Below, one piece after another: positions 1,355 to 9,438 of a stretch of DNA of 11,357 nucleotides. Under the pieces are notes generated by a model that was given only the letters and a program-made list of their open reading frames with translations, did not search any database and was not told where the DNA came from. The stretch lies in the IMG/VR virus record IMGVR_UViG_2698536339_000015, one strand, 5' to 3'. This stretch comes from a virus. Its lineage: Duplodnaviria > Heunggongvirae > Uroviricota > Caudoviricetes. The first letter of the stretch is position 1. Every line of letters begins with the position of its first letter. Made by a program: the position numbers and the translations under genes.

Positions 1355-1978
1355 TTAAAATTCGAATTGTCTCGCCCGAAGGCTTTTCAGCATTGGTCTT
1401 GCCCGTTCGAAAAGGGCGCTTGTCTGGTCAAGTCGTGTCGCCTCCCTGAGCAGTGCGTCTCTGTTTTTCGTCACCGTGTAGAAAGTCTCAAACGCGATGT
1501 CATACAGCTTGCTCGAGTATGATGAGTTCAGTTCCTTCAATATCGGATACAGGCGTTTGCTGATGTCCTGTGCTTTCTCCATCTGTACCTGCATGTAGCA
1601 GAGGAGGATGATTTCCTCGTCTGTGAATTGCTGCGCTGGTTGCATGCTGCGAAGTTTCTTTTCGCACTCGATGAAGTATCGGCGTATCTGGCGGCCTTTT
1701 TCGTTGCGCTCGACCATTGCCAGCTCTTTGGCTGTGTCGAGGGTGAGGTGGTAATCCTTGCGGTTGTGACCGCCTCTACCAGATGTTTGCTTTCCCAAAT
1801 TGGAAAGCAAAATATAGTCTTGATTTTCAATGAATTCGTATTCTGAAATGCGATTTGTAATCCATGCCGCAAACACCTTTTTCACGCCTAAAAAAGCATG
1901 CAGATCGCGGGCATTGCAGAGTAGGGCTGTTTCGTTGGCGATAGTGCCGTTGAATACGGGGATGAGTTGACTGGTCAT
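1355..1978 (-). CDS. AntA/AntB-type antirepressor-domain protein (207 aa); N-terminal ~100 aa resemble the phage AntA domain, C-terminal half unassigned
   Basis: ORF with ATG at 1978 and AAGGA 7 nt upstream. N-terminal pattern LIPVF...ARDLHAFLGV...FAAWITNRI..YEFIENQDY...YHLTLDTAKELAMVERNEKGRQIRRYF recalls AntA-family proteins. Family assignment is from memory, not a search. Confidence 0.6.
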   Translation of the reverse strand: MTSQLIPVFNGTIANETALLCNARDLHAFLGVKKVFAAWITNRISEYEFIENQDYILLSNLGKQTSGRGGHNRKDYHLTLDTAKELAMVERNEKGRQIRRYFIECEKKLRSMQPAQQFTDEEIILLCYMQVQMEKAQDISKRLYPILKELNSSYSSKLYDIAFETFYTVTKNRDALLREATRLDQTSALFERARPMLKSLRARQFEF

Positions 1979-2300: not shown

Positions 2301-2861
2301 TCATGCAGCCTTTCGTTCTCCTTCGATGAGTTCCTCGATCTTGTGCACTCCCGCCTCGTTGTAGCGAAATGTCTCGACCTGCTTGTCACTGTGCGCCGAT
2401 TTGTCGATGAACCACTTCCCGTACTTTTCTGTTTTGAGCATGTAGGTGTTGGCAATGCGCCCTACCTTGTTGGCTGAAATGCCAAGCATGGTGCCAACCT
2501 CCGACGCAGAGTAGTGATGTTCATCAATGACCGGAAGAGGGATTGCACTAAAGCCGACGACGGGATTAATCAGGCTGGCGGCAACGACCTGTTTAGCTTC
2601 CGGTGCGAGGTGAGGGAGGAAGTCGAAGAGGTCTTTCATTGTGTCGACGGTCATTTTCAATGCGCGTGCCTTACGGAATTCTTCAAGGCCATCCGGTGAT
2701 TTCTTCGTGGTCGTTTTTTGTTGCAACTGCTGTTGCATTGATTCAAGTTTGTCGACCAGCGAACGACGGACGGCTTTCGACTCACGTGCGGCGACGCGCA
2801 GGGCTTGCTTGTAGGTCATCACTATAACCACCTGATCCGCTCCGCCTTTTTTCTTATCCAT
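2301..2861 (-). CDS. Phage regulatory/antirepressor-like protein (186 aa as an intact ORF); C-terminal region reminiscent of KilA-C/ANT-type domains
   Basis: ORF with ATG at 2861 and no SD. Protein-like sequence continues in-frame upstream through a TGA to an ATG at 3044 that has a good RBS. Confidence 0.5.
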   Translation of the reverse strand: MDKKKGGADQVVIVMTYKQALRVAARESKAVRRSLVDKLESMQQQLQQKTTTKKSPDGLEEFRKARALKMTVDTMKDLFDFLPHLAPEAKQVVAASLINPVVGFSAIPLPVIDEHHYSASEVGTMLGISANKVGRIANTYMLKTEKYGKWFIDKSAHSDKQVETFRYNEAGVHKIEELIEGERKAA

Positions 2862-2863
2862 GG

Positions 2864-2886
2864 GGGTTACGAAAATTTCGTAACCC
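2864..2886. repeat. 23-bp perfect palindrome GGGTTACGAAA-A-TTTCGTAACCC
   Basis: Eleven-bp arms verified base by base around a central A at 2875, ending 3 nt from the ATG at 2861. Confidence 0.8.
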
Positions 2887-3061
2887 TCCCCCTCAAGCTC
2901 ATCTTTGATGCGTGCAATGAAGTCGTTGTTGCGTACTTCTTTTTCGCCTCACAGTCTCCGCGCCTCATTAACCATTTTCAACAGCATCTGGCTGTCAATT
3001 GTTGCAGCCGGAAACGAAGACTGATTTGCAATATTGTTAATCATGTATTCTGTCCTTTTCA

Positions 3062-3089
3062 GATAAAAGAAATCCCCGCCAATGCGAGG
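3062..3089 (-). terminator. Terminator-like hairpin (minus strand) between the ASCH-like gene and the interrupted ORF
   Basis: Minus RNA CCUCGC-AUUG-GCGGGG (6-bp stem with one G-U pair) followed by AUUUCUUUUAU. Confidence 0.35.
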
Positions 3090-3093
3090 ATTG

Positions 3094-3378
3094 TTATTCA
3101 TTGCCGATATTCACCTTTATCGCGTATACCTTTACCGGTTTATCGCCGAAGTGCGGATGTGTGATTGTCTTGATTTCATATCCGCCATACGGAACATCAA
3201 TTCTGCGGCTGGAATCGTCGCGCTTCGGATACCCCTTCGTGATGATCAGACTGCCATACTCGCGGTTAACGAGGCGCTTTTTCCAGTAGTCATTAACAAG
3301 GCGATACTCTTCCGTTTTCTCTCCGCGAATCATGGCATCGAAGTATTCACTTTTAACAGCAAGTTGCAGGTTAGCCAT
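3094..3378 (-). CDS. ASCH-domain-like small protein (94 aa from the ATG at 3378; the listed ORF begins one codon earlier at GTG)
   Basis: GEKTEEYR matches the ASCH GxKxxExR motif. Its ATG overlaps the TGA of the upstream TraR-like gene (TGATG). Confidence 0.65.
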   Translation of the reverse strand: MANLQLAVKSEYFDAMIRGEKTEEYRLVNDYWKKRLVNREYGSLIITKGYPKRDDSSRRIDVPYGGYEIKTITHPHFGDKPVKVYAIKVNIGNE

Positions 3379-6520: not shown

Positions 6521-6889
6521 TCAGGCGGCTTTGATAGTCATATCATCTGAATCAAATATTCCTGATGTATCGATATCGGTAATTCTTATTCCTTCGCTAC
6601 CATCCATTGGAGGCCATCCTTCCTGACCATTTCCATCATTCCAGTCGAACTCACACACAACACCATATGCATTTAAGTCGCTTGAAATTGCTATAAGCAG
6701 AGCATGTTGCGCCAGCATGATTAATACAGCATTTAATACAGAGCCGTGTTTATTGAGTCGGTATTCAGAGTCTGACCAGAAATTATTAATCTGGTGAAGT
6801 TTTTCCTCTGTCATTACGTCATGGTCGATTTCAATTTCCATTGATGCTTTCCAGTCGTAATCAATGATGTATTTTTTGATGTTTGACAT
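6521..6889 (-). CDS. ea10: Ea10 protein, 122 aa
   Basis: MSNIKKYIIDYDWKASMEIEIDHDV...DSDDMTIKAA; same length and position as lambda ea10. Confidence 0.85.
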   Translation of the reverse strand: MSNIKKYIIDYDWKASMEIEIDHDVMTEEKLHQINNFWSDSEYRLNKHGSVLNAVLIMLAQHALLIAISSDLNAYGVVCEFDWNDGNGQEGWPPMDGSEGIRITDIDTSGIFDSDDMTIKAA

Positions 6890-6935: not shown

Positions 6936-7071
6936 AAAGAAGATTTCCAATAATCAGAACAAGTCGGCTCCTGTTTAGTTACGAGCGACATTGCTCCGTG
7001 TATTCACTCGTTGGAATGAATACACAGTGCAGTGTTTATTCTGTTATTTATGCCAAAAATAAAGGTCACTA

Positions 7072-7344: not shown

Positions 7345-7671
7345 TCAAATAAGTGGTTTGCTGCCTAATTTCATTTTCTGGCGACCAACACAAGTCACAC
7401 CCATTTCACTGCGTGGCTTGCTGTACCATGTGCGCTGATTCTTGCGCTCAATACGTTGCAGGTTGCTTTCAATCTGTTCGTGGTATTCAGCCAGCACTGT
7501 AAGGTCTATCGGATTCAGTGCGCTTTCTACTCGTGATTTCGGTTTGCGATTCAGCGAGAGAATAGGGCGGTTAACTGGTTTTGCGTTTACCCCAACCAAC
7601 AGGGGATTTGCTGCTTTCCATTGAGCCTGTTTCTCTGCGCGACGTTCGCGGCGGCGTGTTTGTGCATCCAT
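7345..7671 (-). CDS. N: Antitermination protein N, 108 aa from the ATG at 7671 (the ORF track extends 26 codons further upstream)
   Basis: MDAQTRRRERRAEKQAQWKAANPLLVGV...LQRIERKNQRTWYSKP matches lambda N including the arginine-rich boxB-binding motif. The last ~22 residues (RSEMGVTCVGRQKMKLGSKPLI) differ from lambda. Confidence 0.9.
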   Translation of the reverse strand: MDAQTRRRERRAEKQAQWKAANPLLVGVNAKPVNRPILSLNRKPKSRVESALNPIDLTVLAEYHEQIESNLQRIERKNQRTWYSKPRSEMGVTCVGRQKMKLGSKPLI

Positions 7672-7829
7672 CTGGATTCTCCTGTCAGTTAGCTTTGGTG
7701 GTGTGTGGGAGTCGTAGTCCTGAACGAAAAACACCCCGCAATGGCACATTGGCAGCTAATCCGGATTCGCACTTCCGGCCAATGCTTCGTTTCGTATCAC
7801 ACACACCAAAGCCTTCTGCTTTGAATGCT

Positions 7830-7991: not shown

Positions 7992-8021
7992 GGAAAAAGA
8001 AAACCCGACGCTAAGGTCGGG
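7992..8021 (-). terminator. Rho-independent terminator (minus strand) downstream of cI
   Basis: Minus RNA CCCGAC-CUUAGC-GUCGGG (6-bp stem) followed by UUUUCUUUUU, 33 nt after the cI stop. Confidence 0.5.
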
Positions 8022-8053
8022 TTATTGTTGTGTGTTTTAGAGTTGTGAGGCTG

Positions 8054-9080: not shown

Positions 9081-9159
9081 ATCAAATTAAGCCACACCTA
9101 TGGTGTATGCATTTATTTGCATACATTCAATCAATTGTTATCTAAGGAAATACTTACAT

Positions 9160-9438
9160 ATGCAACTTACAAGTACTCGCAAGAAAGCGAATGCAATTAC
9201 AAGCAACATCCTGAATCGAATTGCTGTACGTGGTCAGCGAAAGGTTGCCGACGCGTTAGGGATTAATGAATCGCAAATTTCGCGATGGAAAGACAGCTTT
9301 ATCCCAAAGATGGCCATGCTTCTGGCTGTGCTGGAGTGGGGTGTTGAAGACGAGGAATTAGCAAAGCTAGCAAAGAAAGTAGCCATGGTGCTGACAAAAG
9401 AAAAGCCTCAAGACTGCTGCAACAGTTTTGAGGCCTGA
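9160..9438 (+). CDS. cII: CII transcriptional activator homolog (92 aa)
   Basis: ATG at 9160 with AAGGA RBS. The central region (SQISRWK...IPKMAMLLAVLEWGV) aligns with lambda CII; both termini differ. The upstream 60 nt are lambda-like, including the pRE -10 region. Confidence 0.8.
   Translation: MQLTSTRKKANAITSNILNRIAVRGQRKVADALGINESQISRWKDSFIPKMAMLLAVLEWGVEDEELAKLAKKVAMVLTKEKPQDCCNSFEA

What the first reader, a model, noticed from the sequence alone, without database searches (positions are those of the whole stretch)
2864..2886. 23-bp perfect palindrome in coding sequence, immediately upstream of the restart ATG
GGGTTACGAAA-A-TTTCGTAACCC has 11-bp arms with no mismatches. It lies in the codons for GYEIFVTP, between the in-frame TGA and the ATG at 2861. 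An 11+11 perfect palindrome is very unlikely by chance in a window this size. In mRNA it would form a 10-12-bp hairpin ending 1-3 nt before the start codon, which could occlude initiation or act as a processing site. As DNA it has the geometry of a dimeric protein binding site.
Basis: seen in the sequence. Interest (0 to 1): 0.5.

Follow-up and report, generated by a model that had tools for sequence, protein, structure and literature searches.

The report
Conserved palindrome inside phage antirepressor genes
The 23-base palindrome is real and is the local copy of an ancient, apparently undescribed DNA dyad that nearly all genes of this phage "antirepressor-like" family keep at one spot in their coding sequence, even when the encoded amino acids change; what it does is still unknown.

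Summary
GGGTTACGAAA-A-TTTCGTAACCC (2864-2886) is the only perfect inverted repeat with 11-bp arms in the window. Only 2% of composition-matched random sequences contain one.

The host gene is on the minus strand (3044->2301). It is an antirepressor-like pseudogene: TGA at 2949-2951 replaces CGA or TGC of intact relatives. The "restart ATG" is simply codon Met62, which is present only in the E. coli subgroup.

The main result is that homologues found without reference to the palindrome keep a 9-11-bp stem at the same codons. They come from Pseudomonas, enterobacteria, betaproteobacteria and metagenomes. Compensatory changes are often non-synonymous (GGT/ACC, ACC/GGT, TTT/AAA, CAC/GTG, GAA/TTC->AAA/TTT). 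Rare codons are forced (Val GTA 156/156; centre codon always A-N-T).

The neighbouring AntA/AntB gene has its own palindrome (1786-1811) at the equivalent codons. That one is also conserved with covariation, as far as Lactococcus phages.

The constraint is strict Watson-Crick pairing, is symmetric between the two strands, and shows no G·U preference. This points to DNA rather than mRNA.

Function is unresolved. My probabilities are:
- a dyad site for a dimer, possibly the module's own product: 0.35
- a quasipalindrome maintained by template switching, with no function: 0.30
- an mRNA hairpin: 0.12
- a cruciform or recombination site: 0.10

Occlusion of a restart codon is not supported.

The parts
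2864..2886 (.). Perfect 11+1+11 palindrome (mRNA sense GGGTTACGAAA-T-TTTCGTAACCC). It encodes G54-Y-E-I-F-V-T60, the first strand of the beta-hairpin of the N-terminal module.
   Evidence: chance 2%. Conserved with covariation in homologues. The strand assignment comes from the AF2 model.
2301..3044 (-). Host gene: antirepressor-like ORF, 247 aa when intact, here a pseudogene. The N-terminal ~105 aa form an uncharacterised AntA-like module and the C-terminal part is a second helix/beta-hairpin domain.
   Evidence: Translation. Intact homologue, Lyz12581Vzw gp46. PHROG 1726 'anti-repressor'. No Pfam hit. RefSeq 'internal stop' pseudogene. Structure model.
2949..2951 (-). In-frame TGA (codon 32 of the 247-aa frame), a nonsense mutation. 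Homologues have CGA (Arg) or TGC (Cys).
   Evidence: The identical allele is present in at least 12 complete E. coli genomes.
2859..2861 (-). It lies 2 nt 3' of the palindrome and is not conserved outside the E. coli GYEIFVTPMDKKK subgroup.
1786..1811 (.). Second perfect palindrome, 10+6+10 (TTTGCTTTCC-CAAATT-GGAAAGCAAA). It encodes I-L-L-S-N-L-G-K-Q of the neighbouring AntA/AntB antirepressor gene, at the equivalent codons (~56-64).
   Evidence: Conserved with covariation in relatives.
1355..1978 (-). Neighbouring gene: AntA/AntB N-terminal domain (PF08346) plus P22_AR_C. It is a distant relative of the module that carries the finding.
   Evidence: Pfam. hhalign of the two N-domains gave probability 17%, E 1.4e-3, 78 collinear columns.
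3071..3092 (-). Terminator-like hairpin plus T-run, 27 nt upstream of the gene's ATG (3044). Included for context only.

Best explanation
The palindrome is one copy of an ancestral dyad that is embedded in the coding sequence of AntA-like N-terminal modules of phage 'antirepressor' (KilAC-type) genes and is inherited together with that module.

Shown:
- The dyad sits at the codons of the first beta-hairpin strand in almost all members.
- Its arms turn over in sequence but stay complementary, at the cost of rare codons and of amino-acid changes.
- The stem is sharply bounded at about 10 bp.
- The centre is always an A-run / one free base / T-run.
- The complementarity is strictly Watson-Crick and the same on both strands.
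- There is one copy per gene, and it moves with the module between unrelated genomic contexts and host phyla.

Inferred:
- The constraint acts on DNA, not mRNA.
- The element is a selected two-fold-symmetric duplex site, about two helical turns long with a bendable AT centre, bound by a dimeric protein.
- Only the module itself accompanies the site everywhere, so the most economical binder is the gene's own product. The N-domain is predicted to have a beta-alpha-alpha-beta-beta-alpha winged-helix/KH-like fold followed by a long helix that could dimerise.
- The site would then act as an intragenic self-site for autoregulation (a transcriptional roadblock) or for nucleation. This is analogous to parS inside parB/spo0J and to the lambda ori iterons inside gene O (both from my own knowledge).
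- The symmetry of the outer, sequence-variable 3 bp is probably reinforced by template-switch homogenisation of the arms.
For: - Unbiased homologue sets, retrieved only through the peptide MRESKAVR(R), give 190 unique sequences. The longest perfect inverted repeat in the 66 nt after the DEL motif averages 8.8 bp, against 4.9 bp in synonymous recodings. 78% of sequences reach p<=0.05.
- Pairing by distance j from the centre is 0.88-1.00 for j=1-9, 0.73 at j=10, 0.36 at j=11 and <=0.14 beyond.
- On 110 distinct 39-mers, 6 of 10 pairs show double changes and 72 cells show a change on both sides. The covariation score is 0.174 against 0.072 in shuffles, reached by 0 of 500 shuffles. Slid controls pair at 22-47%, against 89.7% for the real register.
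- Codon evidence: Val GTA 156/156 (background 0.11); Tyr TAC 156/156; GAA:GAG 144:2; Phe TTT is used only opposite Lys AAA. The centre codon is ACT 98 vs ACC 3, AGT 15/15, AAT 8/8. No G-N-C or C-N-G centre codon occurs, although the residue varies among T, S, I, N and K. The AT centre is therefore itself constrained, and symmetry reaches bases that cannot pair in a hairpin.
- Other subfamilies with different peptides keep a stem at the same place: AGCGGTAAAAAgTTTTTACCGCT, GCGTAAAAcTTTTACGC, GGGTGGGGA-N7-TCCCCACCC, GGGGGTGCAA-N5-TTGCACaCCCCC.
- There is no G·U preference among the mismatches.
- Within the gene family this is the only conserved inverted-repeat position: 76% of sequences, against <=3% for any other position.
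- The related AntA/AntB module shows the same phenomenon at the same codons, from E. coli to Lactococcus.
- 3 of the 5 perfect inverted repeats with arms >=9 in 50 kb of phage Lyz12581Vzw lie in its three ant-like genes.
- Genomic context is not conserved: early-left near int/xis in E. coli, and after a cro-like gene and before a replication gene in Pseudomonas phages.
- Fold evidence is weak: Foldseek gave local matches to winged-helix DNA-binding domains (MerR/Xis-like, PadR/LmrR, RTP) and to KH domains, with E values of 0.03-1.
Against: - No binding has been shown, and the fold matches are not significant.
- Outer arm positions differ between close relatives whose proteins are 85-90% identical (GGT/ACC, ACC/GGT, TAC/GTG, TTT/AAA). 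A sequence-specific binder does not explain this, so a second process has to be invoked for those 3 bp.
- The invariance of the inner half-site follows from protein constraint on one base of each pair plus complementarity. It does not by itself prove sequence-specific recognition.
- No second copy exists near promoters.
- Some subfamilies have a 1-nt bulge or loops of up to 11 nt, which suits a folded strand better than a fixed duplex site.
- Lavi et al. 2018 (PMC5941160) argue that perfect inverted repeats can be conserved by template switching alone.
Confidence: 0.35

Rival explanations
1. A self-maintaining coding quasipalindrome with no function. The protein segment (a hydrophobic strand followed by a polar turn) gives codons whose middle bases are already complementary. 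Once a stem of 9 bp or more existed, replication template switching between the arms kept copying one arm onto the other. Mismatches are either reverted or propagated, so the arms evolve in concert wherever the protein tolerates it.
For: - Complementarity is strictly Watson-Crick, strand-symmetric and without wobble preference.
- Paired multi-nucleotide swaps occur, such as GGT/ACC to ACC/GGT.
- Complementarity reaches the centre, and some variants extend to full palindromes (11+0+11, 11+2+11).
- The feature is independent of host, genomic context and flanking sequence, and there are no partner sites.
- Pairing decays gradually at the stem ends.
- Lavi et al. 2018 (PMC5941160) report conservation of perfect inverted repeats in Proteobacteria and attribute it to template switching. 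They report observed/expected enrichment rising steeply with arm length.
Against: - The feature persists at one codon position through divergence so deep that the two modules are barely alignable, and across phyla.
- Other inverted repeats of 7-8 bp in the same genes are not conserved.
- The centre is always A-N-T and never G-N-C or C-N-G. Copying alone does not predict this.
- An A·C mismatch persists in many Firmicute sequences although the conservative correction Ile->Val is tolerated in relatives.
- Centre-base changes show no clear inversion signature (CG 9, AC 6, CT 5, AG 3, AT 1, against a background of 28% complement flips).
- Arm length clusters at 9-11 bp in three data sets.
Confidence: 0.3
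2. An mRNA stem-loop inside the coding region that tunes antirepressor expression, for example as a processing or decay determinant (RNase III or a 3'-exonuclease barrier), as a ribosome slow-down site, or as a binding site for the protein's own KH-like domain.
For: - The sense strand folds into a 10-12-bp hairpin. The 81-nt context has MFE -22.9 kcal/mol, z = -2.7.
- Stems persist with variable loops of 3-11 nt, 1x1 mismatches and a 1-nt bulge in some subfamilies.
- One deep subfamily keeps a sense-strand G·U (GGTCGCG/CGTGACC).
- Loops are A-rich in AntA genes.
- The N-domain has beta-alpha-alpha-beta-beta-alpha topology, with weak Foldseek matches to KH domains.
Against: - Synonymous alternatives that would give G·U (GTG, TAT, GAG, TTT) are almost never used (2 of ~620 opportunities).
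- Mismatches in imperfect stems are not enriched for G·U (14 G·U-type, 18 A·C-type, 52 other).
- At j=10, U·G (7) is rarer than U·U (15).
- Bases next to the single centre base are constrained to A...T although they cannot pair in RNA.
- No Rfam family matches.
- There is no U-tract and no promoter or terminator signal.
Confidence: 0.12
3. A DNA hairpin or cruciform used by structure-specific enzymes (Holliday-junction resolvases, SbcCD, replication restart). It would act as a recombination or mutation hotspot that shuffles or diversifies the variable wing of antirepressor modules.
For: - The AT-rich centre with GC-containing arms is the arrangement that favours extrusion (my own knowledge).
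- The segment just 3' of the palindrome is the most variable and indel-rich part of the domain.
- The modules are highly mosaic, with one N-domain joined to many different C-termini.
- Strict Watson-Crick pairing fits a DNA-level structure.
Against: - Arms of 10 bp are short for stable extrusion in vivo (my own knowledge).
- The benefit would be second-order and hard to select for.
- No mosaic breakpoints were mapped precisely to the palindrome.
Confidence: 0.1
4. One reading: the hairpin or dyad controls re-initiation at ATG 2861 after the in-frame TGA, or it is an operator for the resident phage's repressor or Cro.
For: - In this allele the stem ends 2 nt before the ATG.
- A purine run GAGGGGGAGGG precedes the stem, so a hairpin-bridged ribosome-binding site is geometrically conceivable.
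Against: - The TGA is a recent nonsense mutation that is absent from intact relatives.
- Met62 is absent from most of the family, which nevertheless keeps the palindrome.
- No matching site exists in the immunity region or elsewhere.
- In Tuc2009 the ant palindrome does not match the cI-cro operators.
Confidence: 0.03

Closest known systems
parS inside parB/spo0J, and lambda ori iterons inside gene O (cis sites embedded in the gene of the protein that binds them; from my own knowledge)
   Same: A dyad-symmetric DNA site lies within coding sequence and is inherited together with a gene whose product is a predicted nucleic-acid-binding dimer. There is one site per gene, and it imposes codon constraints.
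   Different: Binding has not been shown here. The arm sequences vary between close relatives, whereas parS and the iterons are sequence-conserved. The site lies inside the putative binding domain's own codons. No partition or replication function is indicated.
Perfect inverted repeats conserved by template switching (Lavi et al. 2018, PMC5941160), and coding palindromes in Nematomorpha mitochondrial genes (Mikhailov et al. 2019, PMC6649704)
   Same: Perfect inverted repeats are retained over evolutionary time. Both arms code for protein. The arms co-evolve, with strict Watson-Crick complementarity.
   Different: Here a single short (about 21-26 bp) repeat is tied to one structural position of one protein-domain superfamily across phyla. 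It has a constrained AT-rich centre. Other inverted repeats in the same genes are not conserved.
Distal intragenic operators of Gram-positive phage switches. An example seen here is the Streptococcus-type locus L077, where the CI operator is repeated in the PR promoter and inside the 3' end of the cro-like gene.
   Same: A palindrome inside a regulatory gene's coding sequence. By chance, the L077 operator even shares the 15-mer TACGAAANTTTCGTA.
   Different: Those operators have matching copies in the promoter region. The ant palindromes have none.
Structured cis-regulatory RNA elements within coding regions (for example SECIS, frameshift stimulators, RNase III sites)
   Same: A stem-loop within an ORF that shows covariation.
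   Different: No wobble tolerance, no Rfam match, no slippery site, and the hairpin is 63 nt from the UGA.

Membership tests
AntA/AntB antirepressor N-terminal domain (Pfam PF08346), as the family of the host module | Significant match to the Pfam HMM | tested here: not met
   No Pfam family matched at E<=0.01 for the intact 247-aa homologue or for the 186-aa window ORF. The neighbouring gene 1355-1978 does match (E 1.6e-26).
AntA/AntB antirepressor N-terminal domain (Pfam PF08346), as the family of the host module | Profile-profile similarity and the same order of secondary-structure elements | tested here: inconclusive
   hhalign gave probability 17%, E 1.4e-3, 78 collinear columns. The AF2 model shows beta-alpha-alpha-beta-beta-alpha plus a long helix. 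Members of both groups pair the N-domain with KilAC or P22_AR_C-type C-termini.
Intrinsic (Rho-independent) terminator | G+C-rich stem followed by a T/U run | tested here: not met
   The scan reports no terminator at 2864-2886 on either strand. The flanks are CCCCCATGG and TCCCCCTCA.
Any curated RNA family (Rfam 15) | Covariance-model match | tested here: not met
   Window 2600-3150 was searched on both strands at E<=5. Only three sub-threshold matches were found, all elsewhere.
Bacterial SECIS element (in-frame UGA recoding) | Hairpin beginning about 11 nt after a conserved UGA (from my own knowledge) | tested here: not met
   The hairpin starts 63 nt after the TGA. Homologues have CGA or TGC at that codon.
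Operator of the resident phage's CI/Cro switch | Related copies of the site in the immunity or promoter region | tested here: not met
   No other copy with <=2 mismatches exists in the window. None with <=4 of 20 mismatches was found in 50 kb of Lyz12581Vzw. Only 2 weak extra sites appeared in 195 loci with +-1.5 kb flanks. The Tuc2009 ant palindrome differs from its switch operators.
Self-site (cis site bound by the product of the gene that contains it; parS/spo0J type) | The encoded protein binds the site specifically | not testable with these tools
   Only indirect support is available: co-inheritance with the module in unrelated contexts, and weak fold resemblance to winged-helix and KH nucleic-acid-binding domains.
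Quasipalindrome maintained by template switching | Strict Watson-Crick, strand-symmetric arm homogenisation, with paired multi-base changes | tested here: met
Quasipalindrome maintained by template switching | Spacer-inversion signature (complement flips of the centre base in excess) | tested here: inconclusive
   10 of 24 inferred centre changes are complement flips, against 28% in the background.
Hairpin-bridged internal ribosome-binding site / restart codon | A start codon conserved just 3' of the stem | tested here: not met
   Met62 occurs only in the GYEIFVTPMDKKK subgroup. Other subfamilies read VVRNQ, VVQNL, VGQKN, YRYGN and similar.

The most novel reading that the evidence does not exclude
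AntA-like N-terminal modules of phage antirepressor/KilAC proteins are nucleic-acid-binding domains that carry their own recognition site inside the codons of their beta-hairpin. The result is a self-contained 'domain plus site' cassette that has been co-inherited and shuffled among temperate phages of Proteobacteria and Firmicutes, and that gives each antirepressor built-in autoregulation independent of the host phage's circuitry.
Probability: 0.25. Interest if true: 0.8.

Novelty: new variant of a known kind. Interest (0 to 1): 0.62.

Why it matters
Antirepressor-like genes are among the commonest and least understood genes of temperate phages, including Shiga-toxin phages, where they affect induction.

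A nucleotide-level element that overrides codon usage, and even amino-acid choice, at one fixed position across hundreds of divergent genes and two bacterial phyla has two possible meanings. It may be an unrecognised cis-regulatory site. That would open a direct experimental route to how these genes are kept silent, or to what their N-domains bind. Alternatively, it may be one of the cleanest natural examples of a coding palindrome perpetuated by template switching, which would matter for models of sequence evolution and for alignment and phylogeny methods that treat sites as independent.

Either outcome can be tested with simple synonymous mutants. I found no paper that contains the sequence or describes the feature.

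Tried and rejected
- Total MFE against synonymous recodings is a poor statistic here (mean z -1.2). GC-rich recodings fold as well as the AT-rich native stem. I replaced it with arm length of perfect inverted repeats.
- The scan of viral contigs for TACGAAANTTTCGTA is biased by the pattern and includes chance hits. I used it only as a lead and then rebuilt unbiased sets from a distant peptide motif.
- Streptococcus-type loci with two or three copies of the same 15-mer (L077 and others) turned out to be CI operators of an unrelated switch. The shared core is a chance match.
- HK022 Roi: I half-remembered that it binds within its own gene. The paper is not held, and roi has no comparable palindrome, so I did not use it.
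- A replication-origin idea arose because the gene precedes replication genes in Pseudomonas phages. I rejected it because the initiator is the next gene and the context is not conserved.
- SECIS, terminator, Rfam family, promoter and CI-operator readings were all tested and none was met.
- A search of PDB sequences with the N-domain profile gave nothing.
- The control using the downstream gene family was too small, at 8 sequences.
- The first attempt at search for related loci failed because the alignment was too diverse.
- One literature query was rejected for syntax.

Full report
**1. The observation**

Positions 2864-2886 (+) read GGGTTACGAAAATTTCGTAACCC, 11+1+11 with no mismatch. It is the longest perfect inverted repeat in the window. 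In 400 first-order Markov simulations of the window, 2% contained any perfect inverted repeat with arms >=11 and loop <=6.

The gene is on the minus strand. The ORF running 3044->2301 would encode 247 aa, but it carries TGA at 2949-2951.

Alignment with intact relatives shows that the TGA is a one-base nonsense change. Phage Lyz12581Vzw gp46 is 99.5% identical and has CGA there. Stx2a_F451 is 86% identical and has TGC. RefSeq annotates the identical allele as a pseudogene with 'internal stop'. It sits in a lambdoid prophage next to mdtABC, int and xis.

The 'restart ATG' at 2861 is internal codon Met62. On the mRNA, the palindrome encodes G-Y-E-I-F-V-T. It lies 63 nt after the TGA and ends 2 nt before that ATG.

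**2. The palindrome is conserved independently of the peptide**

Close relatives already show three different stems, all palindromic:
- GGT TAC GAA ATT TTC GTA ACC (GYEIFVT)
- ACC TAC GAA ATT TTC GTA GGT (TYEIFVG), which is again 11+1+11 when the flanking G..C is included
- TAC TAC GAA ATT TTC GTA GTG (YYEIFVV)

A pattern scan of viral contigs added F..K (TTT/AAA), H..V (CAC/GTG) and N..V (AAC/GTT). That scan was biased by the pattern and served only as a lead.

To remove the bias, I retrieved homologues solely through a distant motif, MRESKAVR(R), from three collections: 48 genome loci, 80 viral loci and 80 metagenome loci. This gave 190 unique domain sequences.

Results on these sequences:
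- Arm length. The longest perfect inverted repeat in the 66 nt after the DEL motif averages 8.8 bp, against 4.9 bp in synonymous recodings. 78% of sequences reach p<=0.05.
- Pairing by distance j from the centre (the middle base of the codon before the conserved Phe): 0.88, 0.94, 0.99, 0.97, 1.00, 1.00, 1.00, 0.97, 0.97 and 0.73 for j=1-10, then 0.36 at j=11 and <=0.14 beyond. The stem is therefore sharply bounded at about 10 bp.
- Covariation on 110 distinct 39-mers. 6 of 10 pairs show double changes, in 72 cells. The covariation score is 0.174 against 0.072 in shuffles (0 of 500 shuffles reach it). 89.7% of cells are paired, against 22-47% when the 3' partners are slid by 1-3 columns.
- Codon usage. 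Val is GTA in 156/156 (background 0.11). Tyr is TAC in 156/156. Glu is GAA 144 against GAG 2. Phe TTT is used only where Glu is replaced by Lys AAA. The centre codon is ACT 98 against ACC 3, AGT 15/15 and AAT 8/8.

Subfamilies with quite different peptides keep a stem at the same place:

| Peptide | Stem |
|---|---|
| PAVKSFYRY | AGCGGTAAAAAgTTTTTACCGCT |
| GPRKTFTHP | GCGTAAAAcTTTTACGC |
| GTGKKFRLN | AACCGGAA-N5-TTCCGGTT |
| LGVGTKIPHPY | GGGTGGGGA-N7-TCCCCACCC |
| GGCKKIAHPQ | GGGGGTGCAA-N5-TTGCACaCCCCC |
| GVQKYFTP | GGGGGTGcAAA-N4-TTTCACCCCC |

Within the gene family this is the only conserved inverted-repeat position. It is present in 76% of sequences, and no other position exceeds 3%.

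**3. The host module and a second example in the same window**

The protein has no Pfam N-domain. It belongs to PHROG 1726 'anti-repressor'. Several relatives carry a C-terminal KilAC/ANT domain, PF03374.

An AF2 model (pLDDT 75) gives beta15-17, H18-31, H39-49, beta56-60 (YEIFV), beta71-77, H78-86 and H90-110. Foldseek finds only weak local resemblance to winged-helix DNA-binding domains and KH domains.

The neighbouring gene (1355-1978, minus strand) is a bona fide AntA/AntB protein. It holds the window's second-best palindrome, 1786-1811 (10+6+10), at the equivalent codons: I-L-L-S-N-L-G-K-Q, about codons 56-64.

AntA relatives keep this palindrome with compensatory, often non-synonymous changes:
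- TTTGCTTTCC/GGAAAGCAAA
- TTTGCTTGCC/GGCAAGCAAA
- TTTGCTCCCC/GGGGAGCAAA
- CTATTTCCC/GGGAAATAG
- TTTTCGCCAAATTTGGCGAAAA (11+0+11)
- TTGCTTGCCAA-aa-TTGGCAAGCAA (11+2+11)

It is also present in Pseudomonas PS-1, Ralstonia Gamede, Vibrio D59 and Lactococcus Tuc2009 (10+8+10). In Firmicute phages generally it is more degenerate: among 71 unique sequences the mean arm is 6.7 bp against 5.1 bp recoded, and many stems read 6 bp + one mismatch + 4 bp.

The two N-domains align collinearly by profile comparison, at hhalign probability 17% and E 1.4e-3. They may be distant homologues, but this is not established. In 50 kb of phage Lyz12581Vzw there are only five perfect inverted repeats with arms >=9, and three of them are in the three ant-like genes.

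**4. What kind of constraint is it?**

(a) It does not look like RNA pairing.
- Synonymous alternatives that would give G·U are almost never used.
- In imperfect stems from the three data sets, the mismatches are 14 G·U-type, 18 A·C-type and 52 other.
- At j=10, U·G (7) is rarer than U·U (15).
- The bases flanking the single free centre base are constrained to A...T, although a one-base loop cannot form.

(b) The AT-rich centre is itself constrained. The centre residue varies among T, S, I, N and K, which have little in common beyond a codon that starts with A. G-N-C and C-N-G codons never occur there.

(c) It is not an operator of the resident switch, nor part of a multi-site system.
- No further copy exists in the window, in 50 kb of Lyz12581Vzw, or within +-1.5 kb in 195 loci.
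- The Tuc2009 palindrome differs from its cI-cro operators.

(d) It travels with the module, not with a genomic context. It lies in the early-left operon near int/xis in E. coli, and after a cro-like gene and before a replication gene in Pseudomonas phages.

(e) It matches no Rfam family, terminator or promoter.

**5. Explanations**

*Favoured explanation (0.35).* I favour a selected DNA-level dyad: two helical turns with a bendable A-run/N/T-run centre, bound by a symmetric dimer. The only candidate that accompanies the site everywhere is the module's own product. The element would then be an intragenic self-site used for autoregulation or nucleation. Precedents from my own knowledge are parS in spo0J and lambda ori in O.

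Weak points of this explanation:
- No binding data exist.
- The fold matches are insignificant.
- The outer three base pairs differ between near-identical proteins yet stay symmetric. I have to ascribe that to arm homogenisation.

*Main rival (0.30).* Arm homogenisation may be the whole story: a permissive 'hydrophobic strand / polar turn' segment carrying a quasipalindrome that template switching perpetuates. Lavi et al. 2018 proposed this for perfect inverted repeats in Proteobacteria.

It explains the strict Watson-Crick, strand-symmetric pattern and the paired multi-base swaps. It does not obviously explain:
- the AT-only centre;
- the depth and positional constancy of the feature;
- the non-conservation of other inverted repeats in the same genes;
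- the persistent A·C mismatch in Firmicutes.

A test for centre inversion was inconclusive.

*Other rivals.* An mRNA hairpin gets 0.12. The sense strand does fold (z = -2.7), and bulged variants exist, but the wobble evidence is against it. A cruciform or recombination hotspot gets 0.10.

**6. Known or new?**

I found no paper containing the sequence, and none describing a palindrome in antirepressor coding regions. Coding-embedded cis sites and conserved coding palindromes are known kinds. This would be a new variant: one that is tied to a structural position of a phage protein-domain superfamily across phyla.

**7. Verdict**

The specific mechanistic link to the TGA and ATG is not supported. 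The function remains open, and the competing readings can be separated directly with synonymous arm mutants, binding assays and a template-switch reversion assay.

Noticed in passing
window 1786-1811 (gene 1355-1978, minus strand): Perfect 10+6+10 palindrome in the neighbouring AntA/AntB antirepressor gene, at the equivalent codons of its beta-hairpin. It is conserved with covariation in relatives from E. coli to Lactococcus phages.
   Followed up: yes
window 2949-2951: The in-frame TGA replaces CGA (Arg) or TGC (Cys) of intact homologues. The identical nonsense allele is present in at least 12 complete E. coli genomes and is annotated as a pseudogene. I did not check whether a 186-aa product from Met62 is made.
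   Followed up: partly
window 3071-3092 (minus strand): Terminator-like hairpin with a T-run, 27 nt upstream of the antirepressor-like gene's start codon and between it and the ASCH-domain gene. This suggests the gene is insulated from upstream transcription unless antitermination occurs.
   Followed up: no
window 6988-7035: Imperfect inverted repeat with 22-nt arms (82% complementary, 4-nt spacer) in the early-left region, between the ORFs at 6521-6889 and 7345-7749. Its function was not examined.
   Followed up: no
window 9104-9125, 8002-8023 and 1330-1349: Three further perfect 8-bp-arm inverted repeats. TGTATGCATTTATTTGCATACA lies at the start of the ORF 9100-9438, which by position appears to correspond to the CII family gene annotated in the RefSeq record (correspondence not checked). 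AACCCGACGCTAAGGTCGGGTT lies just downstream of the repressor-side ORF. AAAGGAGCCGAAGCTCCTTT lies between xis and the AntA gene.
   Followed up: no
window 2805-3164 (+): A 119-aa antisense ORF mirrors the gene codon for codon. It reads G-Y-E-N-F-V-T through the palindrome. It is probably a by-product of the codon-aligned antisense frame.
   Followed up: no
L077 3839-3855, 3901-3915, 4136-4150 (also L082, L088, L099, L110, L120-L122): In a Streptococcus-type temperate phage switch, the 15-mer TACGAAANTTTCGTA is a CI-type operator. One copy lies between the -35 and -10 of the lytic promoter, a degenerate copy lies near the repressor gene start, and a third copy lies inside the 3' end of the cro-like gene, about 235 bp away.
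   Followed up: partly
L346 1520 and 1754: A second, degenerate copy of the dyad (ACTACGAAAAAATTGTAGT) lies 234 nt downstream of the first in one metagenomic locus. It is the only such case among 195 loci.
   Followed up: no
L377 (phage Lyz12581Vzw) 89-119 and 2368-2391: The two other long perfect inverted repeats of that phage: a 15+1+15 terminator-like palindrome near the genome end, and a 9+6+9 repeat inside a structural-protein gene. I did not test whether the latter is conserved in homologues; it would be a useful control.
   Followed up: no
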